This document shows, one piece after another, positions 5,562 to 53,901 of a stretch of 64,000 bases of DNA; the stretch's first letter is position 1, and every line of letters begins with the position of its first letter. The translations under genes were made by a program, and so were the position numbers. The DNA lies in the NCBI GenBank assembly GCA_964016885.1, contig OZ024745.1:83638001-83702000 (forward strand). The letters run 5' to 3'. The notes under the pieces were generated by a model. That model was not told the DNA's origin, did no database searches, and saw only the letters and a program-made list of their open reading frames with translations. This stretch comes from Eledone cirrhosa (taxonomy: Eukaryota).

Positions 5562-5771
5562 GTTTTTTTGAGAAAAAAATTATTATTTTTTCCAAAATAA
5601 AGTTCAAATATTTGGGCCAAAAGGCCCAAATATTATGAGTTATTCCTTCACAGGATACAAATGAATGTCTTATAATGCTTCAGCGGTACAAAAAATAAAC
5701 AATTCTCTACAATTAATCCTCAAAAAATTGCTTACTCACGGAGCTTCAAAAAACGTACATCCACTTTCGTC

Positions 5772-5977
5772 AATAATAATAATAATAATAATTGTTTATA
5801 CTTTAGGCACAAGGGCAGCAACTACCCAGTGTATTACTGGTACTTTATTTTATCGATCCCGTAAGTATGAAAGGCAAAGTCAACCTCGGCGGGATTTGAA
5901 CTCAGATCGTAAAGGGACGTAACTATGCTGGAAAGCATGGCGTCCGACCCTCTACCGATACTGCCAATCCACCGCTC
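5772..5977 (-). mobile_element. tRNA-derived SINE with (ATT)n tail
   Basis: Reverse strand has A-box-like TGGCAGTATCGG, B-box GAGTTCAAATCC and core GACTTTGCCTTTCAT..GTCGATAAAATAAAGTACCAG-like sequence; two more copies in the window. Confidence 0.88.
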
Positions 5978-11606: not shown

Positions 11607-11840
11607 GATTTTTTTTTCTCCGTAAATTTTTTAAAATGTAAAAAAAGTTCAAATATTTGGGCCAAAAGGTCCAAATATTATACTTTACCCTTCACAGGGC
11701 AAAGTCTAAGGGCTTATATCCCTTACACAACAAGAAATATTTAACAACAAATAATTTTAACAGGCAAATAAAGCGACTTACAGGGAGAGAACAAAATACG
11801 TCTGATTAGACAAATAATAATAATAATAATAATAATAATA

Positions 11841-14421: not shown

Positions 14422-14458
<37 letters not shown>
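11841..14458 (+). mobile_element. R4/Dong-like RLE element, family A, copy A1 (5'-truncated, degraded)
   Basis: KSPGPDG, YRPITCL, FMDD, RHD and RPDL fragments; bounded by (AAT)n tracts. Confidence 0.9.
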
Positions 14459-17400
14459 GTTTTGAATTTTTAACATATTTAAACCATTTGTGAAATAATA
14501 ACTCTTAGCACAAATGCTACGTAAAGCACCCGGCTTGAGCCCCAAAAAATTCGGACCCAAAATATATTGTTATAAGGCTCAAATATTCAAATATTCAACT
14601 TTGTATTGTACACTGTATATCCAAAAAAAAAAAAAAAAAATGGCTACAAATGGAAGAAGAACCCCTCCCCTCCTCTCCTCTGGCTACACTATATAGGACA
14701 GCTAAACTCACCAACACCAGAAACTAGATACACCACCCACCCCATCATCTGTGTACACTAAACACAACAGCCAGATAACGACACATTTTCACCTTCACCG
14801 CCACCGCTCACTACGGCCATCATTACCACCACTATCCCATCACCGCCGCCACTACCCCTTGACTCCGCTACAGCACCATCACTACAGTAATACGGTCACA
14901 TCACCGCCACCACTGCCTCGGTATCGACATCACCACCACCACTGTCTCAGTATCGCTAACGCCGCCAGTCTCCCACTTCCCTGCTGGCTGCTACTTCCAC
15001 ATTATAGAATCCCTACTACTAACAAAGAGGAAGGCATCAAAATATATAGATAGACCCAAAAGAAAAAAGAAAAAACAAACAACAAAACCAAAGCAGCACA
15101 GCAACAACAGCAAAAAACGAGAAAAACAAACAGAGAAAAACAAAAACAAAAATAAAGAAACCCCAAAACGTAAAGAAAATAAGAATGAAGAGAGAAGCAG
15201 GCGGACGGACAGAGAAGAGGGGGGAAAAAGTAAAACTTAAAAAACTAAAACTAAGTCAGACATTCGAACACTACATTACAATGAAACTTATGCTTATTCA
15301 TTTCTGGGGCCCTTTCTGCGTGTGTGTTTGTTTGTTTATGTGTGTTCATATACAGCGTGGTGATAGTGCCACACAAGGGCCAAGTGGGATGGCGGATCCA
15401 CAGATGGCTATGTAAACATACGTTCGCCAATCCTCGATAAGAGTGTTTAAATATCGAACATAAACAGTTCGAATAACGGTGAAATGGAGACTAGAACGTC
15501 ATGTGACAGACTCTCACCCAACAGGTGCCCCCTGGCTCAGCAGCAGGAACCTGATTGTCAACCAAATACTGCTGATGTTGGAGGAAGGAGAAGAAGGAAA
15601 GGGGCCAGAACCAACTGGACGAAAGAATTGAATAGAACTGTTATGCAATGCTACCTGAAAAGTAACCCCAAGGAGAGGGGCTACAGGAGACGGATGCATA
15701 ACATCTGGAACGAGATTGGTTTATTTAAATTAGATGAACAAAAATTGGCCGGGCAGGCTCGGGTAATAAGAACTAATGGGTGGATAAGCGAGCTGGAACT
15801 GGAGGAACTGAGCAGAGAGAATGGCTTGGAGATGGCGGGTGTAGTATGCCAGACAAGCGAGCCGCTGGGAAATGAAGGTGAGGAGGTCCTGAGAACGGAG
15901 GAACCACCCGAAGCAGACAATGATCTGAGTACTGAGATAAATAATACCTGGAACAGAGATACGGCCACTGAGGAGATGAATGCTGACGGGCTAGGACAAG
16001 ATTCGGTTGACATCCTAAATTTAGTGGTAGATGAATTGAACAATGATAGTGGGAGGCCTATGAACCTAAGATTTGTAGACAGGAAAAAGTTAAAAGAAAC
16101 AACAGCTAAGGTAAACAAAGTCATCCCATACCTTGAGGCGAGGAGCCTTCACCAGTGCAACAATATCCTCAGAGCAACAGCAAATACGGTGAGGAAACTA
16201 CTTGGTATAAAAGCGAGAGGAAACAACAGACAAGAAAGAGCAGAGCCGTGGTGGAAGAAGCGACTGAGTGGGCAAATCGGGGAAATGAGAAATGACATAG
16301 GAAAGCTTGAGTCACTACTGAATGGGACACTAAAAAACATAGGCACTAAAAATAGACTGGAAATAAAATACAAAACTAGGAGTAAAAAGCTAAATATTAT
16401 CATAGAGGAATTGAAGCAACGCATTGCAGCAAAGTGTGCAAAAATCAGGCGATACGAGAACAGAGTCAGTCAGTATAAACAGAACCGCATGTTCGACAAC
16501 AACCAGAAGATGCTGTTTGGACAGCTTGAGGGCAAAGAAAGAGGCAACGACTTGATCCCTGGGGCGGAGCAAACTAAAACATTCTGGAGAGGTATATGGG
16601 AGCAGGATGTTAGACACAATGCCCAGGCAGGGTGGATTGAGACAGTACAGAGGGAGATCGGTGAGCAGCCACAGCAACAGACTGATTTGAGTATCACAGT
16701 TGAAACTCTTAAGGGGCAAGCCAAAAAACTAACCAACTGGAAATCACCAGGCCCAGATGGTGTGCAGGGGTATTGGATTAAACATCTAACATCCCTCCAC
16801 CCGAAGCTGACGGCCATGTTCAATGACTGCTTGGTGTCGGGTGAGGTGCCAGAGTGGTTGACAAAAGGTACCACAGTTCTGATAATGAAAGACCGAATCA
16901 AGGGTAATGATGCTACCAACTATAGACCTATCACATGTCTGCTCGTAATGTGGAAACTGTTGACGAGCATTGTGTCTGAGGAAATCTACCATCACCTCCA
17001 CACAAACAACTTGTTACCGGACGAACAGAAAGGATGCCGAAAGAAGTCACGTGGTACAAAGGACCAGCTGCTTGTTGATAAGATGGTAATGGGGACTTGC
17101 AGGAGGAGACACACTGATCTTGCCATGGGATGGATATGGTGCCTCATTCCTGGATCACCAAAAGCCTGGAGATCTTCAGGGTGGCAGATAACATCAGACA
17201 GTTGCTGGGCAGGAGTATGGGGTCCTGGGAGACAGAGTTGACATCAACTGGAGTATCCTTGGGAAGCGTGAAGATCAAGAGAGGTATCTTCCAGGGAGAT
17301 AGCCTGTCCCCTCTGTTGTTTGTCCTTGCCCTGATGCCCTTGACCATTATGCTGCGAAAAGTGAGAGCAGGATACATGTTGGGAAGGGGAGAGCTTACCA

Positions 17401-21451: not shown

Positions 21452-21469
21452 ATATGATGAAAATATAAT

Positions 21470-21656
21470 TATTTCTACATTAGGCACAAGGCCAGCAATT
21501 ACCCAGTGTATTACTGGTACTTTATTTTATCGACCCCGTAAGGATGAAAGGCAAAGTTAACCTCGGCGAGATTTGAACTCAGAATGGCAAGGGCCGTAAC
21601 TCTATGCGTCAAAGCATGACGTCCGATCCTCTACCGATACTGCCAATCCACCGCCC
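21470..21656 (-). mobile_element. tRNA-derived SINE with 19-bp TSD
   Basis: Same family as 5772-5977; TSD AATATGATGAAAATATAAT at 21451-21469 and 21657-21675. Confidence 0.9.
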
Positions 21657-24600
21657 AATATGATGAAAATATAATGAAAATATATATTAAACATACGAAC
21701 ACAAACTCATAGATACTACGTCAGTAACGACAACACCACCGCTGCCACCACCCCACCACATCCATCATCGCCGCCACCACTCATTCAATGCTACTGACAC
21801 TATTCCCCTGTTAACTTGAGATAGAAAAGGGAAGGTGGCGGTAGCACTAGACAAGAGAGAGGCTAGCAAAAGATATAAATAGATTGACTTGGTGACCTTG
21901 CTACGGCCAAACGTCTACATCAACAATTATGGGACTGCTGGCTCACCCCTTCCTCACCAACAATATAAAAAGACCCGGCACCACCACCGACATAGCCAGC
22001 AGCAATAACAGCCAACTACAACAAAAAGTATATTATATTATTGTAATGCTCTGGGTGATTGCTGGCCTTGTGCCTGGAGTGGAGACAATTATTAATAATT
22101 TCATTCTTAAGCCACGCAATGCTCACATTAAGGAACCACTCATGATAATAACAATTTAAAAAAAACAACAAAAAGAAAACCCCGTGACCAAGAAATACCG
22201 GGATGGCGGCCGGCGGGGAATAGCCATGTCTCTAGGGGAGAACGACCCCTCTAGTCTTGGTTGACACTCGTTCTAGAAGTGGTAACACGAAATGATTACC
22301 CCTTGGCGGATAAGGATAAAACGCGACAAAATAAAGTAATGTCTAATGATAAAATCTCATACCGGATCGGCCGTCACCCGGGTAAAAAAGGGCCGCGTCC
22401 CTCAGAGAGGAACCAGACTGGGGTCGAAAAATCAGCTAATGGTTCAAACCTTCCCATCACTTCGGAGCTGGAGACCTCCCATAACCGGAATACTCCTACT
22501 GTTGGCCCTCCATGCTCACCACCAAGAAATCCAAAGAAAAAGAGAGAAAAATGGTCAAGGGAAGATAATAAAGAAGTCCTTGAGGCTTTCTACACTGCCA
22601 TGTACTACCCATCAAATACATCGAATACAGAACAAACATATATCAACTGGAAAAAGAAACATCCAGAAAACAGAGGCTATATTGACAGTAACAAACTAGC
22701 CAATATACGAAGAAATATTGTAAGAAAAAAGTTACTAACTGATATAGAAATTGATCAGATCAAGCTAGTAGCACAAAGTCAGCGAAGGGAAAATGAAGCA
22801 TGTGTCAGTGAAAACGAGGTAAACTGTAACACTTCGAATCCCAGGGTTGGGGCGGAATCACTGGCAACAGAACAAATTAAAGAAAGGAGCGAAAAAGTGG
22901 AGGGAGTGCATGCTCAGGATGAAACTCCAAATGAAAATAATGAGATCGTAAATGATAAAGAAATGAATGAGAATGAACTTGCCAACTTGAAGGATGAAAT
23001 TATGATCGAATGGATGAAAATGAAAGAATCTGACATGGGGCAACGAGACACCCTCCCTAAGATCCAGAACTCCAAACAGAACCAAAAGATAATACACAAG
23101 ACTAACATAATTCTCAAAAACATTATCATCACAAACAAACTAAACATTACTGACTTAAATCATCTCTATTATGCATCGGCTAAAGTCACCACTCACTTAT
23201 GTGGAGTGAAGATGAAAAAACAAAGGAATTCCCACAAGAAATCTACTTGGCAAGATAACATCAATCGCCAAATAAACCTTCTCCGATCTGACATAGGAAT
23301 TTTAACAAACTATAAAGTAGGTGAACATGTTAAACAAACTAAACTTAGAAAATTTAAAAAAAAGTACAGTATAAGATCAACATGTGACATAGACATGCTG
23401 ATAGAAACAATCAAGCAAAAAGTGTCGGCCAAAGCTGCTCGTATAAGGCGCTTTGAAAAACGATCTAGATTCTATAAGGACAATAATATGTTCAAAAACA
23501 ACCAAAGAAACTTCTACAGAAAAATTGGTAAGTCAACAATAACTGCTAAATCAATACCACCCAAGGAGGAAGTGCAAGAATTCTGGGAAAAGATCTGGGC
23601 CGAAGAAAAAGTTCATAACATACATGCCCCATGGATAGACAGACAAATGAAAGAAACAGCTCACCTTGAAGAACAAACATGGGAAAATATAACAGTTGAA
23701 CAGTTGCGTTTGGCTCTGAGAAAAACCAGCAAATGGAAATCCCCAGGAAAAGACAAAATACAAAATGTTTGGATAAATGCCTCCACAGAGTCTCATGAGC
23801 TGTTATCCCAACTTTACAATGAAATAGTTAAGTAGCCAGAAAAGATACCATCATGGCTAGTTAACGGCATTACATTCCTGCTTCCGAAGAATGATGAGAC
23901 AAACAATCCCAAAAATTACAGACCGATAACCTGCTTGACCACAATGTATAAAATTTTAACATCAGTCCTAACTGAATACACATATGACCACCTGATAACA
24001 AATGACCTATTTCCCATTGAGTAGAAAGGGTGTAAACGAGGCTCATATGGCTGTAAGGATCAGCTTCTGGTTAACAAAATGATACTGGAAGATTGTCATA
24101 ATAGACACAAAAATCTATCGATTGCTTGGATAGATTATAAAAAAGCATTCGATAGTTTGCCACACAGTTGGATTGAAAAATGTTTAGAGATTTTCAAAAT
24201 ATCCCCCGTTGTCAGGAGGTTTTTGTCATTCAGTATGAGGACATGGGGAACGACACTCCTTTTGAATAGTGAAACAAAATCACTGGAAGCTGGAGAAGTT
24301 AACGTTAATTGTGGAATTTTTCAGGGTGACTCTTTATCACCGCTTTTATTCTGCATCGCACTTATACCATTAAGTAAAATGCTCAATGAAACAAAACATG
24401 GATATAGAGTCTATGACAAAACCATTAATCACCTGTTCTACATGGATGACCTGAAACTATTTGCAAAAAATGATGAACAATTGCAAGGGCTATTATCCCC
24501 TGTGAAGCAGTTCAGTGATGACATTAAAATGCAGTTTGGACTGGATAAATGCGCCAAAGCAACGTTCACCAGAGGAAAGCTGCTGAAGAGTTCAGACATT

Positions 24601-26153: not shown

Positions 26154-27900
26154 CAAAACCATTAATCACCTGTTCTACATGGATGACCTGAAACTATTTG
26201 CAAAAAATGATGAACAATTGCAAGGGCTATTATCCACTGTGAAGCAGTTCAGTGATGACATTAAAATGGAGTTTGGACTGGATAAATGCGCCAAAGCAAC
26301 GTTCACCAGAGGAAAGCTGCTGAAGAGTTCAGACATTAATCTTGATCGGAGGAACGTGATAAGAGAACTTGATCAAGAAAAAACTTACAAATATCTAGGT
26401 GTTTGTGAAGGAGACGGAATCAAGCACTCGACAATGAGGGAAAGGATAAGGAAGGAATGTTACCGCAGAGTAAGAGCAATCTTAAGAACGGAATTGAATG
26501 CAAGGAATAGGATCGATACCATAAACACGCTTGCCAGACCAGTAGTAACCTACAGTTACAATGTCATCAACTGATCAAGCACAGAGATCCGTAGGCTCGA
26601 TACAAAAATTCGAAAACTCTTAACCATGCACAGAATGCATCACCCTAAGACACATATAGATAGAATATATCTCCCTAGGAAAGAAGGAGGATGTGGGTTA
26701 ATCCAGTTAGACATTGCGTTGAAAACTGCAACAATTGGATTATCTACATATCTAAGGGAATCACATGATTGGATGATCAAACTCGTTTTGAAACACGAAA
26801 GCATCAAAAGATCATATTCCATTCCATTACAAAAGATACACAAAGATACAGTAATGGACTACAAATTTCAGAAGTCCCATTTACTGCTGAAATGGAAAAC
26901 ACAGAAAAAGCAAAGCAGGTAAAAGTAACTGCAAAGAAAGAACTGCTACAGAAACTGGCTACGAAATGGCAAGAAAAGCCTCTGTATGGAAAATACCCAG
27001 AGCGAGCTAACAATCCTGATGTTGACAAAACTTTAACCCATCAGTGGTTGGCATCCTCTGGACTGAAATCGGAGACTGAAGGACTGATTATATCAGCACA
27101 AGATCAGTGTCTGCCAACAAAAAATTACCAAGCCAACATAATAAAAAATGGATGCAGCCCATTATGCCGTGTATGCAAAAAACAACCAGAGACCATTGAC
27201 CATATAATTTCAATGTGCAGTCCTATAGCTCCAACCGAATACCTAAACAGGCATGACAGAGCTGCACAATACATACATTGGATAATGAGTAAGCATTTTG
27301 ACCTGCCCCATCAAAAGAATTGGTGGGAGCATCAACCATCTCCCATACTTGAAAAAGATCACATCTCAATCTTGTGGAACTTTAGCATCCAAACAGACCG
27401 AAAAATAGATGCAAATAGACCTGATATAATATTGAAGGACTTCAAAAAGAGGGTATGCCTGCTAATTGATATGTCTGTTCCAATAGACAAGAATGTATCT
27501 ATAAGAACATTTGAAAAATTGAGCAAGTATAAGGACCTGGAGATAGAAATTGGAAAAATGTGGAAATTGAGAACTAAAACAATACCAGTGGTTGTAGGCG
27601 CTCTGGGAATGATACCTAAGGGGTCTAATGATTACTTATCGTAAATCCCAGGAAACTCGCGTATAGGAGAAATACAAAAGATAGTACTAATGGGAACTGC
27701 CCATATACTAAAGAAGATTCTGTCAATATAAGTACATCACAAGTCTAAACACTAAAGATGCATGTGTGAGTATGTATGTTCTTTCTTGAACATGGCGGAC
27801 CTTGTTGTCTCTTGAGGTCACTGGTTGTGACTTGGTGATAACTCGTATGAACATAAAGCAAGATAAATGCAAATGTAATAATAATAATAATAATAATAAT
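26150..27900 (+). mobile_element. Dong-like family B, copy B2 (5'-truncated)
   Basis: Starts just before YMDD, directly after (AAT)n; RLE C-terminus, 3' UTR, (AAT)n tail. Confidence 0.9.
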
Positions 27901-30900
27901 GAAGGGAAGAAGACGCACGTAGAAGGTCATGAAATCGCTCCCGTAAGTTTTGAATTTTTAACATATTTAAATCATTTGTGGTATAACAACTCTTAGTACA
28001 AATGCTACGTAAAGCATCCGGCTTGAGCCCCAAAATAATTCGGACCCAAAATATATTGTTATAAGGCTCAAATATTCAAATATTCAACTTTGTATTGTAC
28101 ATTGCATATTCAAAAAAGAAAATGGCTATAAATGGAAGAAGAAGAACCCACCCCTCCTCTGTCTACACTATATAGAATAGCCAAACAACACCAATCTCAC
28201 CAACACCAGAAACTAGATACAACACCTACCCCATCACCTCTCTGTTTACACTAAACACAACAGCCAGATAACGGCAATTTCACCACCACCACAACCAATC
28301 TCAACATAATAATGATAATAATAAATATTATTATTATTATTGGCTCAAGTTTTAACAAAATGCTTAATTCCAACATTAAGGGAATTTATGTCAACACATG
28401 TACGAGACTAACCCCATAGATTCACCGAACGGACATCAGTAACGACAACGCCGCCCATCCATCATTACTACCACTACCCCATCACTGCCGCCACCACTCC
28501 TTCATGGCTACCACCGCTACAACACCATCACTACAGTAATACGATCACATTACCACCACCACTGCCATCATTACTACCACTATCCAATCACCGCCGCCAC
28601 CGCTCCTTCATTGCTACCACCGCTACAACACCATCACTACAGTAATACGATCACATCACCACCACCACTGCCTCAGTAGCGACATCACCACCACCACTGT
28701 CTCAGTATCGCTACCGCCGCTATTCTCTCCCATTGCTTCCTGCTAGTTGCTGCCACCACATTATAGAATTCCTACTTAAAAAGAGGAAGGCATCAAAATA
28801 TATAGATAGAATCAAAAGAAAAAACAAACATCAAAACCAAAGCAGCACAGCAACAACAACAAAAAAAGAGAAAAACAAACAGAGAAAAACAAAAACAAAA
28901 AAAACGTAAAGAAAATAAGAATGAAGAGAGAAACAAGCGGATGGACAGAGAAGAGAAGGGAAAAACTAAGCCAGACATTCGAACACTACATTACAATGAA
29001 ACTTATGCTTATTCATTTTTGGGGTTTTTTCTGCCTGTTTGTTTGTTTGTTTGTTTGTGTTCGTCTACAGCGTGGTGATAATGCCACACAAGAGCCAAGT
29101 GGAGCGGCGCAACCACCGGAGACGGTAAATCCACAGATGGTTATGTAACCATACATTCGCCAATCCTCGATAGGAGTGTTTAAATATCGAACCTAAACAG
29201 TTCGAATAACGGTGAAATGGAGACTAGAACGTCATGTGACAGACTCTCACCCAACAGGTGCTCCCTGGCTCAGCAGCAGGAACCTGGCTGTCAACCAAAT
29301 ACTGCTGGTGTCGGAGGAAGAAGAAGAAGGAAAGGGCCCAGAACCAACTGGACGAAAGAATTGAATAGAACTGTTATGCAATGTTACCTGAAAAGTAACC
29401 CCAAGGAGAGGGGCTATAGGAGACGGATGCATAACATCTGGAACGATATTGGTCTATTTAAATTAGATGAACAAAAATTGGCCGGGCAGGCTCGGGTAAT
29501 AAGAACTAATGGGTGGATAAGCGAGCTGGAACTGGAGGAACTGAGCAGAGAGATTAGCTTGGAGATGGAGGGTGGAGTATGCCAGGCAAACGAGCCAGTG
29601 GGAAATGAAGGTGAAGAGGTCGAGAGAACAGAGGAACCACCCGAAGCAGACAATGATCTGAATACTGAGATAAATAATACCTGGAGCCGAGATACAGCCA
29701 CTGAGGAGATGAATGCTGACGGGCTAGGACAAGATTCGGTTGACATCCTAAATTTAGTGGTAGATGAATTGAACAATGATAGTGGGAGACCTATGAACCT
29801 AAGATTTGTAGACAGGAAAAAGTTAAAAGAAACAACAGCTAAGTCATCCCATACCTTGAGGCGAGGAGCCTTCACCAGTGCAACAATATCCTCAAAGCAA
29901 CAGCAAATACGGTGAGGAAACTACTTGGTATAAAAGCGAGAGGAAACAACAGACAAGAAAGAGCAGAGCCTTGGTGGAAGAAACGACTGAGTGGTCAAAT
30001 CAGGGTAATGAGAAATGACATTGGAAAGCTTGAGTCACTACTGAATGGGACACTAAAAAATATAGGTACTAAAAATAGACTGGAAATAAAGTACAAAACT
30101 AGGAGGAAAAAGCTAAATATTATCATAGAGGAACTGAAGCAACGCATTGTAGCAAAGAGTGCAAAAATCAGGCGATACGAGAACAGAGTCAGTCAGTATA
30201 AACAGAACGGCATGTCTGACAACAACCAGAAGATGCTGTTTGGACAGCTTGAGGGGAAAGAAAGAGGCAACGACTTGATCCCTGAGGCGGAACAAACTAA
30301 AACATTCTGGAGAGGAATATGGGAGCAGGATGTTAGACATAATGACCAGGCAGGGTGGATTGAGACAGTACAGAGGGAGATCGGTGAGCAGGCACACCAA
30401 CAAACTGATTTGAGTATCACAGTTGAAACTCTTAAGGGGCAGGCCAAAAAACTAACCAACTGGAAATCACCAGGCCCAGATGGTGTGCAGGGGTATTGGA
30501 TTAAAAATATAACATCCCTCCACCCGAAACTGACAACCATGTTCAATGACTGCTTGATGTTAGGTGAGGTACCAGAGTGGTTGACAAAAGGTACCACAGT
30601 TCTGATAATGAAAGACCGAATCAAGGGTAATGATGTTACCAACTATAGACCTATCACATGTCTGCCCGTAATGTGGAAACTGTTGACGAGCATTGTGTCT
30701 GAGGAAATCTACCATCACCTCCACACAAACAACTTGTTACCGGACGAACAGAAAGGATGCCGAAAGAAGTCACGTGGTACAAAGGAGCAGTTACTTATTG
30801 ATAAGATGGTAATGGGGAAGTAGACACACTGATCTTGCCATGGGATGGATAGACTACAGAAAGGCATTTGACATGGTGCCTCATTCTTGGATCACCAAAA

Positions 30901-32664
30901 GCCTGGAGATCTTCAAGGTGGCAGATAACATCAGACAGTTGTTGGGCAAGAGTATGAGGTCCTGGGAAACAGAGTTGACATCAACTGGAGAATCCTTGGG
31001 AAGCGTGAGGATCAAGAGAGGTATCTTCCAGGGAGATAGCCTGTCCCCCTCTGCTGTTTGTCCTTGCCCTGATGCCCCTGACCAGTGTACTGCGAAAAGT
31101 GAGAGCAGGATACGGGTTGGGAAAGGGAGGGCTTACCATCAATCACCTACTCTTCATGGACGATCTTAAGCTCTTCGGGAAGAGTGAGAAGGAGTTGGAT
31201 GTGCTTGTTGACACTGTCCGTATTTTCAGCAGTGATATATGTATGCAGTTTGGTATTAGTAAGTGTGGAGTCATTGTGATGAGGAGGGGTAGGTTGAGCA
31301 GAAGTAACGGAATCCAGATACCAACAGGTGAGATGATAAAGGAATTGACTCTGAGGAAGGATACAAGTATTTGGGCGTTCTGGAGGCTGATGGCATAAAA
31401 AACAAAAAAATGAAGGAATTGTTAAGAACTGAATACATTCGGAGAATAAGGAGCGTATTGATGTCACATCTGAACAGCAGAAATGCCATAAGCGCAGTAA
31501 ATTCCCGAGCTGTGTCTATTATTAGGTACAGTGCGGGAATTCTGAGATGGAATGTTGCTGAACAAAAAGAAATTGATAGGAAGACTAGGAAGCTATTGAC
31601 TATCTACAACATGTTCCATAAGAGGAGTGATGTCGATAGACTCTACCTAAGGAGATCCGAGGGTGGAAGAGGTCTTATCAGCATAGAGGACTGTGTTCAG
31701 ATGGAGAAAAACAACCTACACAAATACGTGACTGATAGTAGGGAGCCAATGCTCAGAACTGTACTGAAGGAGGGGACAATAGGCCAGGGGATGTCCAAGG
31801 AGGAAATAACATCAAGGAGACGGAGCAGCCTTCAGGAAAAATCCCTTCATAGTACCTTCTTTGAGAAAACTGAATTTAGAGATCCACAGACATGGAACTG
31901 GTTGAGAAGTGGAGACCTTAAAAAGGCTACAGAAGGAATGTTATTGGCTGCGCAGGAGCAGGCCCTCAAAACGAAGTGGTTGAAACACTATATTTACAAG
32001 GAGGAGACTAGCCCACTGTGCAGGATCTGTGGAGAGAGAGAGGAGACTGTGGCTCATATTGTATCCGAGCGTAAACACCTAGCCCAGACCCACTATAAGG
32101 GCTGGAGACATGATGTGATGGGCAGGGTGAACCACTGGCACCTGTGCAAAGTAAACAATTTACCACATTCTGAGAAATGGTATGAGCATAAGCCAGAGGC
32201 GGTGATGGAGAACGATCAGGTGAAGGTGCTGTGGGATTTTAGGATACAGACGGACAAGAAACTGGAACAGAATAGACCTGACCTGGTGGTTGTGGACAAA
32301 GAAAAAAGATCGTGTCTGATTGTGGATGTGGCCTGCCCATTCGACACGAGAGTGCAAGAGAAGAAGAGGGAGAAAATTAACCGATACCAGGACTTAAAGT
32401 GGGAGGTAAAAAGGATTTGGAACTGCCATGAAGTTAAAGTGATCCCGATTGTCATAGGCACACTGGGGACTATCTCCAAAAGTTTCCAGGGATGGTTAAA
32501 GAAAATCAGACCCTTCACGCTTTTTGGAACGCTTCAAAAGGCATGCTTGCTGGGAACAGCAAGAACCCTCCGATACGTCCTGAATATCTAAGGCTGCAGG
32601 TAGTGGCTTGATATTCATTCCAACGGACTTTCCAGTTAATTAACATCAATGACTGAGATTCAAG

Positions 32665-32709
<45 letters not shown>
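27901..32709 (+). mobile_element. Dong-like family A, copy A4 (full length, with complete leader)
   Basis: Leader 27901-29216, ORF 29217-32591 with frameshifts, (AAT)n tail. Confidence 0.92.
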
Positions 32710-35700
32710 GAAGAAGGGAAGAAGACGCACGAGGTGGTAGAACGTCACGAAATTGCTCCCGTAAGTTTTTTGATTTTTGACATATTTAAATCAATTGTGA
32801 AAGAACAATTCTTAGCACAAATGTTGCATAAAGGCACCGAATGAGGTCCCATAAAGTTTCGGATCCATATTATATTGTTGTAACGCTCAAATATTCAATT
32901 TTGTATTATATATTTTGTATTCAAAAAAAGAAAATGGTTATAAATGGAACAAAACACCCTCTGTCTACACTATATAGAACAGCGGCAATTTCAATTTCAC
33001 CAACACCAGAAACTTGATACACTACCTATCCCATCACACTAAATATAACGGCAACTTCACCGGCATCATAATAATAATTACTATTATTATTGTCTCAAAT
33101 TTAAAAAAATGTTTAATTCAAATTTTACAGGAATATGTCAACACAAAATATAATGAAAATATATATTAAACATACGAACACAAACTCATAGATACTATAT
33201 CAGTAACCACAACACCACCACATCCATCATCGCCGCCACCACTCATTCAATGCTACTGACACTATTCCCCTGTTAACTTGAGAGAGAAAAGGGAAGGTGG
33301 TGGTAGCACTAGACAAGAGAGAGGCTAGCAAAAGATATAAATAGATTGACTTGGTAACCTTGCCACGGACAAATGTCTACATCAACAATTATGGGACTGC
33401 TGGCTCACCCCTTCCTCACCAACAATATAAAAAGCCCCGGCACCACCACCGACATAGCCAGCAGCAATAACAGCCAACTACAACAAAAAGTATATTATAT
33501 TATTGTAATGCACTGGGTGATTGCTGGCCTGGAGTGGAGACAATTATTAATAATTTCATTCTTAAGCCACGCAATGCTCACATTAAGGAACCACTCATGA
33601 TAATAACAATTTAAAAAAAACAACAAAAAGAAAACCCCGTGACCAAGAAATACCGGGATGGCGGCCGGCGGGGAATAGCCATGTCTCTAGGGGAGAACGA
33701 CCCCTCTAGTCTTGGTTGACACTCGTTCTAGAAGTGGTAACACGAAAAGATTACCCCTTGGCGGATAAGGATAAAACGCGACAAAATAAAGTAGATGTCT
33801 AATGATGAAATCTCATACCGGATCGGCCGTCACCCGGGTAAAAAAGGGCCGCGTCCCTCAGAGAGGAACCAGACTGGGGTCGAAAAATCAGCTAATGGTT
33901 CAAACCTTCCCATCACTTCGGAGCTGGAGACCTCCCATAACCGGAATACTCCTACTGTTGGCCCTCCATGCTCACCACCAAGAAATCCAAAGAAAAAGAG
34001 AGAAAAATGGTCAAGGGAAGATAATAAAGAAGTCCTTGAGGCTTTCTACACTGCCATGTACTACCCATCAAATACATCGAATACAGAGCAAACATATATC
34101 AACTGGAAAAAGAAACATCCCGAAAACAGAGGCTATATTGACAGTAACAAACTAGCCAATATACGAAGAAATATTGTAAGAAAAAAGTTACTAACTGATA
34201 TAGAAATTGATCAGATCAAGCTAGTAGCACAAAGTCAGCGAAGGGAAAATGAAGCATGTGTCAGTGAAAACGAGGTAAACTGTAACACTTCGAATCCCAG
34301 AGTTGGGGCGGAATCACTGGCAACAGAACAAATTAAAGAAAGGAGCGAAAAAGTGGAGGGAGTGCATGCTCAGGATGAAACTCCAAATGAAAATAATGAG
34401 ATCGTAAATGATAAAGAAATGAATGAGAATGAACTTGCCAACTTGAAGGATGAAATTATGATCGAATGGATGAAAATGAAAGAATCTGACATGGGGGAAC
34501 GAGACACCCTCCCTAAGATCCAGAACTCCAAACAGAACCAAAAGATAATACACAAGACAAACATAATTCTCAAAAACATTATCATCACAAACAAACTAAG
34601 CATTACTGACTTAAATCATCTCTATTATGCATCGGCTAAAGTCACCACTCACTTATGTGGAGTGAAGATGAAAAAACAAAGGAATTCCCACAAGAAATCT
34701 ACTTGGCAAGATAACATCAATCGCCAAATAAACCTTCTCCGATCTGACATAGAAATTTTAACAAACTATAAAGTAGGTGAACATGTTAAACAAACTAAAC
34801 TTAGAAAATTGAAAAAAAAGTACAGTATAAGATCAACATGTGACATAGACATGCTGATAGAAACAATCAAGCAAAAAGTGTCGGCCAAAGCTGCTCGTAT
34901 AAGGCGCTTTGAAAAACGATCTAGATTCTATAAGGACAATAATATGTTCAAAAACAACCAAAGAAACTTCTACAGAAAAATTGGTAAGTCAACAATAACT
35001 GCTAAATCAATACCACCCAAGGAGGAAGTGCAAGAATTCTGGGAAAAGATCTGGGCCGAAGAAAAAGTTCATAACATACATGCCCCATGGATAGACAGAC
35101 AAATGAAAGAAACAGCTCACCTTGAAGAACAAACATGGGAAAATATAACAGTTGAACAGCTGCGCTTGGCTCTAAGAAAAACCAGCAAATGGAAATCCCC
35201 AGGAAAAGACAAAATACAAAACTTTTGGATAAATGCCTTCACAGAGTCTCATGAGCTGTTAGCCCAACTTTACAATGAAATAGTTAAGGAGCCAGAAAAG
35301 ATACCATCATGGCTAGTTAACGGCATTACATTCCTGCTACCGAAGAATGATGAGACAAACAATCCCAAAAATTACAGACCGATAACCTGCTTGACCACAA
35401 TGTATAAAATTTTAACATCAGTCCTAACTGAATACACATATGACCACCTGATAACAAATGACCTATTTCCCATTGAGCAGAAAGGGTGTAAACGAGGCTC
35501 ATATGGCTGTAAGGATCAGCTTCTGGTTAACAAAATGATACTGGAAGATTGTCATAATAGACACAAAAATCTATCGATTGCTTGGATAGATTATAAAAAA
35601 GCATTTGATAGTTTGCCACACAGTTGGATTGAAAAATGTTTAGAGATTTTCAAAATATCCCCCGTTATCAGGAGGTTTTTGTCATTCAGTATGAGGACAT

Positions 35701-37613
35701 GGAGAACGACACTCCTTTTGAATAGTGAAACAAAATCACTGGAAGCTGGAGAAGTTAACATTAATTGTGGAATTTTTCAGGGTGACTCTTTATCACCGCT
35801 TTTATTCTGCATCGCACTTATACCATTAAGTAAAATGCTCAATGAAACAAAACATGGATATAGAGTCTATGACAAAACCATTAATCACCTGTTCTACATG
35901 GATGACCTGAAACTATTTGCAAAAAATGATGAACAATTGCAAGGGCTATTATCCACTGTGAAGCAGTTCAGTGATGACATTAAAATGGAGTTTGGACTGG
36001 ATAAATGCGCCAAAGCAACGTTCACCAGAGGAAAGCTGCTGAAGAGTTCAGACATTAATCTTGATCGGGGGAACGTGATAAGAGAGCTTGATCAAGAACA
36101 AACTTACAAATATCTAGGTGTTTGTGAAGGAGACGGAATCAAGCACTCGACAATGAGGGAAAGGATAAGGAAGGAATGTTACCGCAGAGTCAGAGCAATC
36201 TTAAGAACGGAATTGAATGCAAGGAATAGGATCGATGCCATAAACACGCTTGCCATACCAGTAGTAACCTACAGTTACAATGTCATCAACTGGTCAAGCA
36301 CAGAGATCCGTAGGCTCGATACAAAAATCCGAAAATTCTTAACCATGCACAGAATGCATCACCCTAAGGCAGACATAGATAGAATATATCTCCCTAGGAA
36401 AGAAGGAGGACGTGGGTTAATCCAGTTAGACATTGCGTTGAAAACTGCAACAATTGGATTATCCACATATCTAAGGGAATCACATGATTGGATGATCAAA
36501 CTCGTTTTGAAACACGAAAGCACCAAAAGATCATATTCCATTACAAAAGATGCACAAAGATACAGTAATGGACTACAAATTTCAGAAGTCCCATTTACTG
36601 CTGAAATGGAAAACACAGAAAAAGCAAAGCAGGTAAAAGTAACTGCAAAGAAAGAACTGCTACAGAAACTGGCTAAGAAATGGCAAGAAAAGCCTCTGTA
36701 TGGAAAATACCCAGAGCGAGCTAACAATCCTGATGTTGACAAAACTTTAACCCATCAGTGGTTGGCATCCTCTGGACTGAAATCGGAGACTGAAGGACTG
36801 ATTATATCCGCACAAGATCAGTGTCTGCCAACAAAAAATTACCAAGCCAACATAATAAAAAATGGGTGCAGCCCATTATGCCGTGTATGCAAAAAACAAC
36901 CAGAGACCATTGACCATATAATTTCAATGTGCAGTCCTATAGCTCCAACCGAATACCTAAACAGGCATGACAGAGCTGCACAATACATACATTGGATAAT
37001 GTGCAAGCATTTTGACCTGCCCCATCAAAAGAATTGGTGGGAGCATCAACCACCTCCCATACTTGAAAAAGATCACATCTCAATCTTGTGGAACTTTAGC
37101 ATCCAAACAGACCGAAAAATAGATGCAAATAGACCTGATATAATATTGAAGGACTTTCAAAGGAGGGTATGCCTGCTAATTGATATGTCTGTTCCAATAG
37201 ACAAGAATGTATCTATAAAAACATTTGAAAAATTGAGCAAGTATAAGGACCTGGAGATAGAAATTGGAAAAATGTGGAAATTGAGAACTAAAACAATACC
37301 AGTGGTTGTAGGCGCTCTGGGAATGATACCTAAGGGGTCTAACGACTACTTATCGCAAATCCCAGGAAACCCGCGTATAGGAGAAATACAAAAGATAGTA
37401 CTAATGGGAACTGCCCATATACTAAGGAAGATCCTGTCAATATAAGTACATCACAAGTCTAAACACTAAGGATGCATGTGTGAATATGTGTGTTCTTTCT
37501 TGAACATGGCGGACCTTGTTGTCTCTTGAGGTCACTGGTTGTGACTTGGTGATAACTCGTATAAACATAAAGCAAGATAAATGCAAATAATAATAATAAT
37601 AATAATAATAATA
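32710..37613 (+). mobile_element. Dong-like family B, copy B3 (full length, intact ORF)
   Basis: Leader, structured 5' UTR, 1216-aa ORF, 3' UTR, (AAT)n tail. Confidence 0.95.
33795..37445 (+). CDS. Intact R4/Dong-clade RT-RLE polyprotein (1216 aa)
   Basis: [77 protein letters not shown]. Confidence 0.95.
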   Translation: MSNDEISYRIGRHPGKKGPRPSERNQTGVEKSANGSNLPITSELETSHNRNTPTVGPPCSPPRNPKKKREKWSREDNKEVLEAFYTAMYYPSNTSNTEQTYINWKKKHPENRGYIDSNKLANIRRNIVRKKLLTDIEIDQIKLVAQSQRRENEACVSENEVNCNTSNPRVGAESLATEQIKERSEKVEGVHAQDETPNENNEIVNDKEMNENELANLKDEIMIEWMKMKESDMGERDTLPKIQNSKQNQKIIHKTNIILKNIIITNKLSITDLNHLYYASAKVTTHLCGVKMKKQRNSHKKSTWQDNINRQINLLRSDIEILTNYKVGEHVKQTKLRKLKKKYSIRSTCDIDMLIETIKQKVSAKAARIRRFEKRSRFYKDNNMFKNNQRNFYRKIGKSTITAKSIPPKEEVQEFWEKIWAEEKVHNIHAPWIDRQMKETAHLEEQTWENITVEQLRLALRKTSKWKSPGKDKIQNFWINAFTESHELLAQLYNEIVKEPEKIPSWLVNGITFLLPKNDETNNPKNYRPITCLTTMYKILTSVLTEYTYDHLITNDLFPIEQKGCKRGSYGCKDQLLVNKMILEDCHNRHKNLSIAWIDYKKAFDSLPHSWIEKCLEIFKISPVIRRFLSFSMRTWRTTLLLNSETKSLEAGEVNINCGIFQGDSLSPLLFCIALIPLSKMLNETKHGYRVYDKTINHLFYMDDLKLFAKNDEQLQGLLSTVKQFSDDIKMEFGLDKCAKATFTRGKLLKSSDINLDRGNVIRELDQEQTYKYLGVCEGDGIKHSTMRERIRKECYRRVRAILRTELNARNRIDAINTLAIPVVTYSYNVINWSSTEIRRLDTKIRKFLTMHRMHHPKADIDRIYLPRKEGGRGLIQLDIALKTATIGLSTYLRESHDWMIKLVLKHESTKRSYSITKDAQRYSNGLQISEVPFTAEMENTEKAKQVKVTAKKELLQKLAKKWQEKPLYGKYPERANNPDVDKTLTHQWLASSGLKSETEGLIISAQDQCLPTKNYQANIIKNGCSPLCRVCKKQPETIDHIISMCSPIAPTEYLNRHDRAAQYIHWIMCKHFDLPHQKNWWEHQPPPILEKDHISILWNFSIQTDRKIDANRPDIILKDFQRRVCLLIDMSVPIDKNVSIKTFEKLSKYKDLEIEIGKMWKLRTKTIPVVVGALGMIPKGSNDYLSQIPGNPRIGEIQKIVLMGTAHILRKILSI

Positions 37614-38726: not shown

Positions 38727-39965
<1,239 letters not shown>

Positions 39966-39970
<5 letters not shown>

Positions 39971-42900
39971 CGCACGTGGTGGCAGAAGGTCATGAAATCG
40001 CTACCTTAAGTTTTTGATTTTTAACATATTTAAATCAATTGTGAAATAACAATTCTTAGTACAAATGATGCATAAAGCACCGAATCAAGCATCATAAAAG
40101 TTCGGATCCATAATATATTGCTATATTGCTCAAATATTCAATTTTGTATTATACATTTTATGTTCAAAAAAGAAAATGGTTATAAATGGAAGAAAACCCC
40201 CTCTGTCTACACTATATAGAACAGCCAAATAACAGCAATTTCATCAACATCAGAAACTAGATACACCACCTACCTCATCACCCCGCTGTGTACACTAAAT
40301 AAAACAGCCTGATAACGGCAACTTCACCACCGGCACCACCAATCCCAGCATCATAATAATAATTACTATTATTATTGTCTCAAGTTTTAACAAAATGTTT
40401 AATTCCAATATTAAGAGAATATGTCAACACATATATTAAACAAACGCGACACAAACGCATCGATACTACTGTCTATTCAACAAAACTCAGTAACGTCAAC
40501 GCCACAGCCGCCACCACTCCATCCATCATTACTACCACTATCCCATCACCGCCGCCACAACTCCTTCATTGCTACCACCAATATTCCCCATTACCTTCTG
40601 TTAACTTAAGAAAGGGGAAGGTGGCGGTATCACTAGACAAGGGAGAGGCTAGCAAAAGATATAAATAGATTGACTTAGTGACCCGGTCACCGGCCAAACG
40701 TCAACAACTATGGCACTGCTGGCTCCCCCCTTCCCCACCAACAATATAAAAAGCCCCAGCACCACCACCGACATAACCAACAACAATAACAGGCAACTTC
40801 AGCAAAAAGTATATTATATTATTGTAATGCACTGGGTAATTGCTGGCCTTCTGCCTGGAGTGGAGACAATTGTTAATAATTTCATTCTTATGCCACGCAA
40901 TGCTCACATTAAGGAACCTCTCATGATAATAACAATTTAAAAAAACAACAAAAAAGAAAACCCCGTGACCAAGAAATACCGGGATGGCGGCCGGCCGGGA
41001 ATAGCCGTGTCTCTGAGGAGAACGACCCCTCTAGTCTTGGTTGACACTCGTTCTAGAAGTGGTAACACGAAATGATTACCCCTTGGCGGATAAGAATAAA
41101 ACGCGACAAAATAAAGTAAATGTCTAATGATAAAATCTCATATCGGATCGGCCGTCACCCGGGTCAAAAAGGGCCGCGTCCCTCAGAGAGGAACCAGACT
41201 GGGGTCGAAAAATCAGCTAATGGTTCAAACCTTCCCATCACTTCGGAGCTGGAGACCTCCCATAACCGGAATACTCCTACTGTTGGCCCTCCATGCTCAC
41301 CACCAAGAAATCCAAAGAAAAAGAGAGAAAAATGGTTAAGGGAAGATAATAAAGAAGTCCTTGAGGCTTTCTACACTGCCATGTACTACCCATCTAATAC
41401 AGAACAGACATATATCAACTGGAAAAAGAAACATCCCGAAAACAGAGGCTATATTGACAGTAACAAACTAGCCAATATACGAAGAAATATTGTAAAAAAA
41501 ACGTTAGTAACTGATATAGAAATTGATCAGATCAAGCTATTAGCACAAAGTCAGCGAAGGGAAAATGAAACATGTGTCAGTGAAAACGAGGTGAATTGTA
41601 ACACTTCGAATCCCAGGGTTGGGGCGGAATCACTGACAACAGAACAAATTAAAGAAAGGATCGAAAAAGTGGAGGGAGTGCATGCTCAAGATTAAACTCC
41701 AAAGGAAAACAATGAGATCGTAAATGATAAAGAAATGAATGAGAATGAATTTGCCAACTTGAAGGATGAAATTATGATCGAATGGATGAAAATCAAAGAA
41801 TCTGACATGGGGGAACGAGACACCCTCCCTAAGATCCAGAACTCCAAACAGAACCAAAAGATAATACACAAGACTAACATAATTATCAAAAACATTATCA
41901 TCACAAACAAACTAAACATTACTGATTTAAATCATCTCTATTATGCATCGGCTAAAGTCACCACTCACTTATGTGGAGTGAAGATGAAAAAACAAGGAAT
42001 TCCCACAAGAAATCTACTTGGCAAGAGAACATCATATAAACCTTCTCCGATCTGACATAGAAATTTTAAAAAACTATAAAGTAGGTAAACATGTTAAACA
42101 AACTAAACTTAGAAAATTGGAAAGAAAGTACAGTATAAAACCAACAAGTGACATAGGTATGCTGATAGAAATAATCAAGCAAAAAGTGTCGGCCAAAGCT
42201 GCTCGTATAAGGCGCTTTGAAAAACGATCTATGGACAGACAGACAAATGAAAGATACAGCTCACCTTGAGGAACAAATATGGGAAAATATAACAGTTGAA
42301 CAGTTGCGTTTGGCTCTGAGAAAAACCAGCAAATGGAAATCCCCAGGAAAAGACAAAATACAAAATGTTTGGATAAATGCCTTCACAGAGTCTCATGAGC
42401 TGTTATCCCAACTTTACAATGAAATAGTTAAGTAGCCAGAAAAGATACCATCATGGCTAGTTAACGGCATTACATTCCTGCTTCCGAAGAATGATGAGAC
42501 AAACAATCCCCAAAATTACAGACCGATAACTTGCTTGACCACAATGTATAAAATGTTAACATCAGTCCTAACTGAATATACATATGACCAACTGATAACA
42601 AATGATCTATTTCCCAATGAGCAGAAAGGATGTAAACGAGGCTCATATGGCTGTAAGGATCAGCTTTTGTTTAACAAAATGATACTGGAAGATTGTCATA
42701 ATAGACACAAAAATCTATCAATTGCTTGGATAGATTATAAAAAAGCATTCGATAGTTTGCCACACAGTTGGATTGAATAAATGTTTAGAGATTTTCAAAA
42801 TATCTCCGTTGTCAGGAGGTTCCTGTTATTCAGTATGAAGACATGGAAAATGACACTCCTTTTGAATAGTTAAAAAAAAATAACTGGAAGCTGGAGAAGT

Positions 42901-43060: not shown

Positions 43061-46000
43061 TTAAGTTTTTATCTAATTATTTGTTTATTTATTTATATTC
43101 GTCTACAGCGTGATAGTGCCACGCTAAAATCACCGGGAGTGATCAAATCACTTGGGGTTATGAAATCATCGGTGGTTATGTAACCATACATTCATCAATC
43201 CTCGATATGAGTGTTTAAATGTCGATCCTAAACAGTTCGAATAACGGTGACTGGAACGTTATGTGACAGACTCTCACACAGCAGGTGCTCCCTGGCCCAG
43301 CAGCAGGGATCTGCCTGTCATCCAAATACTGCTGGTGTTGGAGGAAGAAGATGGAAAGGGACCAGAACCAACTGGACGAAAGAATTGAATATAACTGTTA
43401 TGGAATGTTACCTGAAGAGTAACCCCAAGGAAAACGGCTCTAGGAAACGGATGCATAACATCTGGAACGAGATTGGTCTATTTAAATTAGATGAACAAAA
43501 ATTGGCCGGGCATGCTCGGGTAATAAGAACTAATGGATGGATAAGCGAGCTGGAACTGGAGGAACTGAGCAGAGAAATGGAGAGTGGAGTATGCCAGGCA
43601 AACGAACCAGTTGGAAATGAAGGTGAAGAGATTGAGAGAAAGGAGGAACCATCCGAAGCAGACAATGGTCTGAATGCTGAAATAAATAATACCTGGAACA
43701 AAGATACGGCCATTGAGGAAATAAATGCTGACGGGCTAGGACAAGATTTGGTTGATATCCTAAACTTAGTGGTAGATGATAGTGGGACACCTATGAACCT
43801 AAGATTGTGGACAGGAAAAAGTTCAAAGAAACAACAGCTAAGGTAAACAAGGTCATCCCATACCTTGAGGCTAGGAACCTTCACCAATGCAACACCAAAT
43901 ACGGAGAGGTTATTACTTGACATAAAAACGAGAGGAAACAAGATAAAAAAAGATCAGAAACTTGGTGGAAGAAACGACTGAATGGTCAAATCAGGGAAAT
44001 GAGAAATGACATTGGAAAGCTTGAGTCCCTACTGAATGGGACATTACAAAACATAGACACTAAAAATAGACTGGAAATAAAGTACAAAACTAGCAGGAAA
44101 TAACTAAATATTATCATAGAGGAACTGAAGCAACGCATTGTAGCAACGAGTGCAAAGATCATGCGATATGAGAGCAGAGTCAGTCAGTATAGGCAGAACG
44201 GCATGTTTGACAACAACCAGAAGATGTTGTTTGGACAGCTTGAAGGGAAAGAAAGAGGCAACGACTTGATCCCTGAGGCGGAACAGACTAAGACATTCTG
44301 GAGAGGAATATGGGAGCAGGATGTTGAACATAATGATCAGGCAGTGTGGACAGAGACAGTACAAAAGGAGATAAGTGAACAGACACACCAACAAACTTAT
44401 TTGAGTATCCCAGTTGAAACTCTTAAAGGGCAGGTTAAAAAACTAACCGACTGGAAATCACCAGGCCCAGATGGTGTGCAGGGTTATTGGATTAAAACTA
44501 TAACATCCCTCCACCCGAAACTGACAACCATGTTCAATGACTGCTTGATATCAGGTGAGGTACCAGAGTGGTTGACAAAAGGTACCACAGTTCTGGTAAT
44601 CAAATACCGAAAAAAGGGTAATGATGTTACCAACTATAGGTCTATCACTTGTCTGTCCGTAATGTGGAAACTGTTAACAAGCATTGTGTCTGAGGAAATC
44701 TACAATCACCTCCACATAAACAACTTGTTACCGGACGAACAGAAAGGATGCCGAAAGGAGTCCCGTGGTACGAAAGACCAGATACTTATTGATAAGATGG
44801 TAATGATGAATTAGAAGAGGAGGCACACTGGTCTTGCCATGGGATGGATAGCTTACAAAAAGGGATTCGACATGGTACCTCATTCTTGGATAACCAAAAG
44901 CCTAGATATCTTCAAGGTGGCAGATAACATCAGACAGTTGTTGAGCAAAAGTATGAAGTTCTGGAAAACAGAGTTAACATCGGGTGGAGAATCCTTCGGA
45001 GGCGTGAAGATCAAGAGAGGTATCTTCCAGGGAGATAGATCGTTCCCTCTGTTGTTTGTCCTTGCCCTGACGCCCCTGACCAGTGTACTGCGAAAAGTGA
45101 GAGCAGGATACAAGTTGGGAAAACGAGAGCTTACCATCAATCACCTCCTCTTCATTGACGATATTAAGCTCTTCGGGAAGTGTGAGAAGGATTTAGATGT
45201 GCTTGTTGACACTGTCCGCATTTTCAGCAATAATGTAATTTGGTATTAGTAAGTGTGGAGTCCTAGTGATGAAGTGGGGTAAATTGAGCAGAAGCAACGG
45301 AATCCAGGTACCAACAGGTGAGATGATAAAGGAAATTGACACTGAAGAAGGATACAAATATTTAGGTGTTCTGGAGGCAGATGACATCATGTACAAAGAA
45401 ATGAAGGAATTGATAAGGTATTAAAATGACATTTGAAAAGGAGGAATGCCATAAGTGCAGTAAATTCCTGAGCTGTGTCTATTATTAGGTACAGTGCGGG
45501 AATTCTGAAATGGAATATTTCTGAACAAAAAGAAATGGATAGGAAGACTAGGAAGCTATTGACTATCTACAATATGTTCCACAAGAGGACTGTTGTCGAT
45601 ATACTCTACTTAAGGAAATCTGAAGGTGGAAGAGGTCTTATCAGCATAGAAGAGTGTGTTCAGATGAAGAAAATCAACCTACACAAATACGTGACTGACC
45701 GTAGGGAGCGAATGCTCAGAATTGTACTGACGGATAGGACAATAGACCAGGGGATGTCCAAGGAGGAAATAATAACAAGGAGGAAGAGCAACCTTCATGA
45801 AAATTCCCTTCATAGTACCTTCTTTGAGAAAACTGAATTCAGAGATCCACAGACATGGAACTGGTTGAAAAGAGGAGACCTTAAAAAGGCTACAGAAGGA
45901 ATGCTAATGGCTGCACAAGAGCAGGCCCTCAAAACGAAGTGGTTGAAGCACCATATTTACAAGGAGGAGGCTAGCCCACTGTGTAGGATATGTTGAGAGA

Positions 46001-53826: not shown

Positions 53827-53901
<75 letters not shown>

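What the first reader, a model, noticed from the sequence alone, without database searches (positions are those of the whole stretch)
27901..29216. Two Dong-like RLE families share a ~1 kb leader with a first exon and splice donor; family A adds an acceptor
Seen: families A and B have divergent ORFs and 3' UTRs but begin with a closely similar ~300-bp sequence, GAAGACGCACG..GAAATCGCTCCC|GTAAGTTTTGA (A4 donor 27943; B3 32761; mutated in B4 at 40006; A2 is truncated exactly at TAAGT, 14456-14460). In family A the leader ends in a T-rich tract plus TACAG (15355, 29070, 43108) just before a structured UTR, defining a 1128-nt candidate intron kept in genomic copies. Known: R2-type RLE elements typically rely on host read-through rather than carrying such a leader. 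Inference: these are intron-bearing RLE elements with a shared or exchanged Pol II promoter and first exon. No clear acceptor was seen in family B, where the donor may act only as a promoter-proximal U1 site.
Basis: partly seen in the sequence, partly recalled or inferred. Interest (0 to 1): 0.82.

Follow-up and report, generated by a model that had tools for sequence, protein, structure and literature searches.

The report
Retrotransposons swap a borrowed L1 promoter
Two distantly related families of jumping genes, of a type that usually has no promoter, begin with the same leader, have traded it repeatedly and occasionally lose a short intron from it, and the leader resembles and was likely captured from the promoter region of an unrelated L1-type element in the same genome.

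Summary
Coordinates are confirmed. The leader is the true 5' end of dispersed copies: 30 of 30 best hits and 39 of 40 position-sampled copies lead into an A or B ORF. The A and B proteins are only 39% identical, yet B-borne leaders are not monophyletic (AU p 2e-47), so the leader was swapped repeatedly.

The donor is used, but not as proposed. Four of 1,473 copies are joined exactly at the donor. Two independent ones end at an AG about 167-176 nt downstream, inside the shared leader; a tandem pair keeps 5 extra bases. No copy lacks the proposed 1128-nt intron, and no RNA data were available.

The first ~215 nt align collinearly with the 5' UTRs of co-resident L1-clade elements that target the same microsatellite (up to 36.7 bits; controls at most 6.0). 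No HDV-like ribozyme was found, although Bombyx Dong has one.

Best reading: Dong-like elements likely captured an L1 internal Pol II promoter with a promoter-proximal donor. Mostly unspliced RNA is copied, and rare spliced RNA gives SpIRE-like copies. Promoter activity and the direction of capture are inferred.

The parts
27904..27942 (+). Exon 1 of the shared 5' cassette (A4), directly after a (TAA)n run; holds an out-of-frame upstream ATG
   Evidence: same fixed 5' start in nearly all of 78 distinct copies; 1,452 exact exon-1/donor matches
27943..28118 (+). Short GT-AG intron (176 nt in A4, 167-170 nt in B types); the only intron found removed in genomic copies (B-type leaders)
28122..28124 (+). 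ATG at the position of the L1 ORF1 start codon; opens only a short ORF here
   Evidence: alignment; translations
28119..29001 (+). Low-complexity C/A-rich leader interior; shared with B up to about 28515; zone where A/B chimeras switch
   Evidence: homology to L1 ORF1 tested and not shown
29002..29070 (+).
   Evidence: no joined copy
29071..29216 (+). Family A 5' UTR; folds; only a degenerate, non-catalytic resemblance to an HDV-like scaffold
29217..32591 (+). Family A ORF (broken in this copy; intact 1128-aa copy in L073): RT, CCHC, PD-type RLE
32716..32930 (+). B3 exon 1 (32716-32760) and short intron (32761-32930)
33795..37445 (+). Family B intact 1216-aa ORF: RT, CCHC, PD-type RLE; 39% identical to A
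39966..40172 (+). B4 cassette with mutated donor (40006), preceded by a long (GAA)n run
14456..15355 (+). A2 leader, truncated one base inside the donor; short-intron AG lost in a poly(A) run
43062..43108 (+). 3' end of the leader of the older A' subfamily (A5), whose full leaders are the closest to L1 5' UTRs
5562..5773 (-). 5' UTR of an L1-clade element: donor-like site at 5739, 12-bp hairpin 5607-5634, ORF1 ATG at 5561; collinear with the Dong cassette
11607..11814 (-). 5' UTR of a second L1-clade family: donor at 11781, hairpin 11652-11679

Best explanation
Two Dong-like RLE retrotransposon families share, and have repeatedly swapped, a 5' cassette that is homologous to the 5' UTR of co-resident L1-clade elements, was likely captured from them and likely acts as an internal Pol II promoter; its donor is occasionally spliced to a nearby AG, leaving rare intron-less copies. 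SHOWN: the cassette is the elements' fixed 5' end; leader and ORF lineages are incongruent; independent genomic copies lack exactly the short GT-AG intron; the cassette aligns with L1 5' UTRs from the donor to the ATG. INFERRED: (1) An ancestral A element took over the 5' end of an L1, by template switch or nested insertion, both families sharing the TAA/TTA microsatellite. This replaced read-through plus ribozyme. (2) B took the cassette from A, and later swaps ran both ways in the shared C/A-rich interior. (3) The donor is kept for transcription (U1 binding against early termination, or an overlapping factor site), not to remove an intron. Its AG partner is dispensable, so over 99% of insertions come from unspliced RNA. 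(4) Spliced copies lose most of the cassette and would be dead ends.
For: Attachment: 30 of 30 and 39 of 40 (the exception, L132, is interrupted about 70 nt after the donor). Exchange: proteins 39% identical, but an A-type leader on a B element is 97% identical to A4 and 79% to B3. A tree of 54 leaders needs 8 changes of ORF family (6-8 in bootstraps, at least 3 forced by starred branches), and B monophyly is rejected, p 2e-47. Splicing: 4 of 21 non-G loci are joined exactly at the donor; the same 4 come up; the elements at the three loci run into a full or near-full B ORF; one origin is rejected, p 1e-45, and p 4e-16 for the two with identical junctions. Donor kept, AG not: AG present in 32 of 33 B-type and 27 of 28 A4-type leaders but 9 of 28 A2-type and 2 of 6 A'. 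L1 homology: a profile of 10 L1 5' UTRs scores 8 of 8 A' leaders at 19.3-36.7 bits (best E 6.5e-10 per Mb) and A4 at 13.8. The best of 2,000 shuffles is 6.0 and of 102 reversed or complemented leaders 5.0. The reciprocal profile hits 9 of 10 L1 UTRs, best 18.0, controls at most 1.3. A 15-16-nt exact match spans the donor. The L1 leaders head APE+RT ORFs (5 of 5 checked). No ribozyme: Rfam none, strict HDV scan 0 of 5 elements; Bombyx Dong self-cleaves at its 5' end (PMC3774820, passages).
Against: No promoter assay, start-site data or RNA evidence. L1 homology is weak for younger leaders: B3 scores 6.8 bits and B4 has no hit. Without the two most divergent L1 families the best score falls to 19.2 and A4 is lost. 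The sequences are AT-rich. Sequence after the ATG shows no homology to L1 ORF1 beyond low complexity; reversed controls score as well. No Dong nested in sense behind an L1 5' end was seen (0 of 50), and L1 and Dong face opposite ways in the microsatellite. The direction rests on L1 diversity and on the ATG being functional only in L1, not on a rooted tree. One of three splicing events (L037/L038) keeps 5 extra bases, and its nearest unspliced relatives have no AG there. The HDV scan had no positive control. The model does not explain the conserved T-rich/AG end of the A leader.
Confidence: 0.6

Rival explanations
1. One reading: family A has a real ~0.7-1.2-kb intron. Spliced RNA is the translated message and unspliced RNA is the template.
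For: The T-rich tract plus AG is kept in the A4, A2 and A' subfamilies while the interior varies from 661 to 1246 nt (49 copies). Removal would cut upstream ATGs from 10-24 to 4-8. The donor is functional.
Against: No genomic copy has this junction, although A-type leaders are about two thirds of the sample (24 of 40) and short-intron splicing left copies. The exon-1 ATG stays out of frame in 47 of 48 copies that have it; the exception has a 1-nt deletion. B has no such site. The A' junction was not covered by the patterns.
Confidence: 0.2
2. The L1 likeness is not capture from L1. Either both converged on, or separately recruited, one host promoter type, or the transfer ran from Dong to L1.
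For: Identity is low and AT-rich; exon-1 starts differ; there is no ORF1 homology. Promoter replacement is frequent in LINEs (PMC2881922, passage).
Against: Gap-poor collinearity over about 180 nt from donor to ATG. Several deeply diverged L1 families all carry the cassette with a working ORF1 ATG, while Dong leaders form a shallower group whose ATG opens only a short ORF.
Confidence: 0.12
3. The leader is a passenger. The elements are still transcribed by read-through from neighbours in arrays, and the donor is cryptic.
For: Many copies sit behind another A or B 3' end. Spliced copies are only 4 of 1,473.
Against: Fixed 5' start; (GAA)n runs directly at the 5' junction in 21 of 128 copies, which suggests slippage on an RNA end (inference); the donor block is kept in the diverged A' leaders; leaders were swapped repeatedly.
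Confidence: 0.08

Closest known systems
Dong (Bombyx mori), R4 clade of RLE non-LTR retrotransposons
   Same: Single RT-CCHC-RLE ORF, (TAA)n target and tail; R2 proteins are the only PDB matches.
   Different: Bombyx Dong begins with a self-cleaving HDV-like ribozyme right after the TAA repeats (PMC3774820, passages). These elements begin with a ~1-1.3-kb leader holding a splice donor, and no ribozyme was found.
SpIREs of human L1 (Larson et al., PMC5860796; abstract, sections 7 and 10 read)
   Same: Rare genomic copies made from RNA spliced within the 5' UTR; the donor is conserved for promoter function (mutating it cut L1 RNA to about 18%, mutating the acceptor did little).
   Different: Here in an RLE element; about 0.3% (4 of 1,473) against about 2% (131 of 6,609); the promoter role is untested here.
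Promoter replacement in LINEs (PMC2881922, passage) and promoter co-option by L1 (bioRxiv 10.1101/2025.02.02.635956, abstract)
   Same: A 5' regulatory module acquired independently of the ORF.
   Different: Donor and recipient belong to different endonuclease groups (APE and RLE), and the module moves back and forth between two families with 39% protein identity.
Pr77 hallmark of trypanosomatid retrotransposons (PMC8190864, PMC4035085; search listing only)
   Same: One 5' promoter module shared by several element families.
   Different: Pr77 is shared within the L1Tc/ingi clade and is itself an HDV-like ribozyme, giving unspliced RNA.

Membership tests
Dong / R4 clade | Single ORF with RT, C-terminal CCHC and PD-(D/E)xK RLE | tested here: met
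Dong / R4 clade | Insertion into (TAA)n, with (TAA)n tail | tested here: met
Dong / R4 clade | No N-terminal C2H2 zinc finger (feature recalled, not from a call) | tested here: met
   none by pattern in A or B
Dong / R4 clade | RT phylogeny groups with named Dong/R4 sequences | not testable with these tools
   679 homologues at E<=1e-30; none of the 120 listed is named Dong or R4
Dong / R4 clade | 5'-terminal HDV-like ribozyme, as in Bombyx Dong | tested here: not met
   Rfam none at E<=5 over 27800-34200; strict descriptor 0 of 5, without a positive control
SpIRE-type copy | Precise loss of a GT-AG segment against unspliced relatives | tested here: met
   L039 and L043 exact; L037/L038 exact at the donor, ambiguous at the acceptor
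SpIRE-type copy | Retrotransposition hallmarks and independent origin | tested here: met
   complete 5' ends at all three loci; (TAA)n tails seen for L066 and L067; monophyly rejected
SpIRE-type copy | Reduced promoter activity | not testable with these tools
   needs a reporter assay
L1-clade 5' UTR promoter | Sequence homology and collinearity with L1 5' UTRs | tested here: met
   strong for A', moderate for A4, weak or absent for B
L1-clade 5' UTR promoter | Followed by ORF1 | tested here: not met
   short ORF only; no homology above reversed controls
L1-clade 5' UTR promoter | Drives Pol II initiation at +1 | not testable with these tools
   indirect only
   absent from genomic copies; RNA not available

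The most novel reading that the evidence does not exclude
An RLE lineage abandoned ribozyme-plus-read-through by capturing the Pol II promoter of an L1-clade neighbour at a shared microsatellite. The cassette now moves as a tradable module between two ancient families. A U1-binding donor without a committed acceptor is a selected part of these LINE promoters: two L1 families keep a donor-like site in a shifted form.
Probability: 0.45. Interest if true: 0.8.

Novelty: new variant of a known kind. Interest (0 to 1): 0.66.

Why it matters
R2-group elements are described as lacking a promoter and relying on co-transcription and ribozymes (PMC2881922, PMC3774820; passages). A family of about 1,500 leader-bearing copies that likely runs on a promoter taken from the other major LINE group would show how RLE elements can leave a transcribed target and spread genome-wide, and that shared target sites act as exchange points between distant clades. 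It also offers a ~215-nt natural test of whether a promoter-proximal 5' splice site is kept for transcription rather than splicing (protection by a 5' splice site: PMC12211998, abstract only). No report of an APE-to-RLE promoter transfer or of spliced copies of an RLE element came up in searches. Those cover open-licence papers only, not Repbase or most subscription journals, and no supplements were read.

Tried and rejected
1. Expression: no RNA holder listed. The four runs of unknown kind (one study) were laid as contigs on L068. One contig in X1 leaves exactly at the donor (820 to 1033, letters between unknown); no joint to the far acceptor is among the 15 shown (29 more not shown). The runs may be the genome's own sample, so this is not used for or against.
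2. Leader as an independent repeat: rejected.
3. Leader as a known RNA gene or ribozyme: nothing near threshold in Rfam.
4. Exon-1 ATG in frame after long splicing: no.
5. Leader interior as decayed L1 ORF1: not shown.
6. Spliced copies of one L1 family: 0 of 3 non-G loci, all point changes.
7. Donor-like site at +34 to +48 in L1 and Dong UTRs: best or joint-best site in 14 of 15 (the exception is a donor-mutated copy), but each only p 0.04-0.17 and the sequences are related; weak support.
8. Third, older RLE family: 0 of 20 upstream stretches kept a leader on that strand, and the copies are fragmentary; uninformative.
9. Earlier scan findings: none.
10. The original Dong paper is not held.
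Left open: base-level mapping of the A/B switch points and a count of truncations at the donor.

Full report
Setting. The window lies in a 3.0-Gb animal genome. Positions 11.8-47.8 kb hold a head-to-tail array of two RLE families, A and B, separated by (TAA)n runs; positions 1-11.8 kb hold two L1-clade elements (APE, RT, zf-RVT) on the minus strand. A and B each encode one RT-CCHC-RLE protein and are 39% identical. They are Dong-like by architecture and target; clade membership by phylogeny could not be tested.

Observation. All coordinates are right. The A/B shared part is about 500-640 nt, not 1 kb. The 5' start is fixed.

The leader is exchanged. In the positional sample, leader type and ORF family were crossed in 5 of 40 copies, with 3 more unclassified. 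An A-type leader on a B element is 97% identical to A4's. On a tree of 54 leaders the ORF label changes 8 times and B monophyly is rejected (bootstrap not fully settled; 39 positional copies plus 15 chosen by me). Three A-leader/B chimeras form a supported clade and switch in the same zone, so at least one chimera likely propagated. Rooted on the older A' leaders, all seen on A ORFs, B's leaders nest among A's.

Which intron is real. A retrotransposon records its spliced RNA as DNA, so I looked for copies joined at the donor. Of 21 copies in which exon 1 is followed by a base other than G, 17 are point changes and 4 are joined to sequence about 167 nt downstream. A gapped pattern and a junction-spanning search returned the same 4 and no more. 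Two (C2:299.03M, C3:75.89M) end exactly at an AG present in both families (28117-28118 in A4). A tandem pair (C2:146.87M) keeps 5 more bases; its acceptor is uncertain, although one unspliced copy (L019) has an AG at that place. On a tree of 38 B elements the spliced copies do not group, so the same GT-AG junction arose at least twice. That is 4 of 1,473 copies; copies with other changes just after the G were not counted. The proposed junction to 29071 was found in none of three searches, which did not cover the A' subfamily. It would not put the exon-1 ATG in frame. The T-rich/AG end is nevertheless conserved across A subfamilies and remains unexplained.

Donor kept, acceptor dispensable. The short-intron AG is missing in 19 of 28 A2-type and 4 of 6 A' leaders that keep the donor. 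Human L1 shows the same pattern: the donor lies in a promoter element and about 2% of full-length copies are spliced (PMC5860796, sections 7 and 10).

Where the leader came from. The window's L1 elements sit in the same microsatellite, facing the other way, and start with a ~35-45-nt segment, a donor-like site, about 175 AT-rich nt with a hairpin, and an A-run before the ORF1 ATG. Pairwise, 5 of 6 L1-Dong comparisons were reached by at most 1 of 500 shuffles, the sixth by 10. A profile built only from 10 L1 5' UTRs scores A' leaders at 19.3-36.7 bits from donor to ATG, A4 at 13.8, B3 at 6.8 and B4 not at all, against at most 6.0 for controls. With 8 closer UTRs only, the best score is 19.2. 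The reciprocal test agrees, and several L1 families share 15-16 identical bases across the donor. Five such UTRs were checked and all head APE+RT ORFs. Homology does not demonstrably extend into ORF1, and no sense-nested intermediate was seen in 50 L1 5' ends. L1 as the source is inferred from its greater diversity and functional ATG.

No ribozyme. Bombyx Dong self-cleaves at its 5' junction (PMC3774820, passages). Rfam and a strict descriptor (no positive control) found none here. The A UTR shows only a degenerate resemblance, lacking the catalytic C in all 44 copies parsed of 68; this is a lead, not a result.

Mechanism. Shown: fixed shared 5' end, repeated exchange, occasional precise removal of a short GT-AG intron, L1 homology (strong for A', weak for B). 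Inferred: capture from L1, Pol II initiation at +1, a transcriptional role for the donor, and dead-end status of spliced copies. Confidence 0.6.

Literature seen: PMC5860796 (abstract, sections 7 and 10); PMC3774820, PMC2881922, PMC4640811, PMC9115989 (passages); PMC12211998 and bioRxiv 10.1101/2025.02.02.635956 (abstract and outline); Pr77 papers (search listing only). Each ingredient has a precedent; the combination in an RLE element did not appear in nine searches. No supplements were read, and Repbase entries could already describe these 5' ends.

Verdict. A real feature, partly misread: the supported intron is the short shared one, and the more interesting point is the likely cross-clade origin and trading of the leader. 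New variant of a known kind; interest 0.66.

Noticed in passing
window 1-11814 (-): Two tandem L1-clade elements (85% identical) inserted in the same microsatellite as Dong but in the opposite orientation; a 12-bp hairpin in their 5' UTR occurs 982 times in G000, and one family has many 99-100% identical 5' ends.
   Followed up: partly
L056, L161, L217-L219: Two divergent L1 families lack the homologous donor but have a donor-like site shifted a few bases, with AG before the GT; may indicate selection for U1 pairing.
   Followed up: partly
window 39905-39965; 21 of 128 leader copies: Pure (GAA)n runs directly at the 5' junction, possibly reverse-transcriptase slippage on the RNA's purine-rich end.
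   Followed up: partly
L064:2457-9901: A spliced leader stub, a full A element with an intact 1141-codon frame, then a spliced B element: a nested or duplicated arrangement.
   Followed up: no
window 29140-29216: Family A UTR folds with helices reminiscent of a decayed HDV-like scaffold; one pair alternates G-U and A-U between subfamilies.
   Followed up: partly
L225:5980-6905; L227-L258: Third, older RLE family (about 50% aa identity to B; copies 76-86% identical to the query), fragmentary.
   Followed up: partly
window 5784-5989, 21461-21667, 61812-62005: A ~190-nt SINE-like repeat that also inserts at TAA runs and piles up inside A' leaders.
   Followed up: no
window 13132-13238: Short inverted copy of downstream A ORF sequence inside a truncated A element.
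   Followed up: no
window 52079-63566: Several 160-310-codon frames among TA microsatellites; the five scanned have no Pfam match.
   Followed up: no
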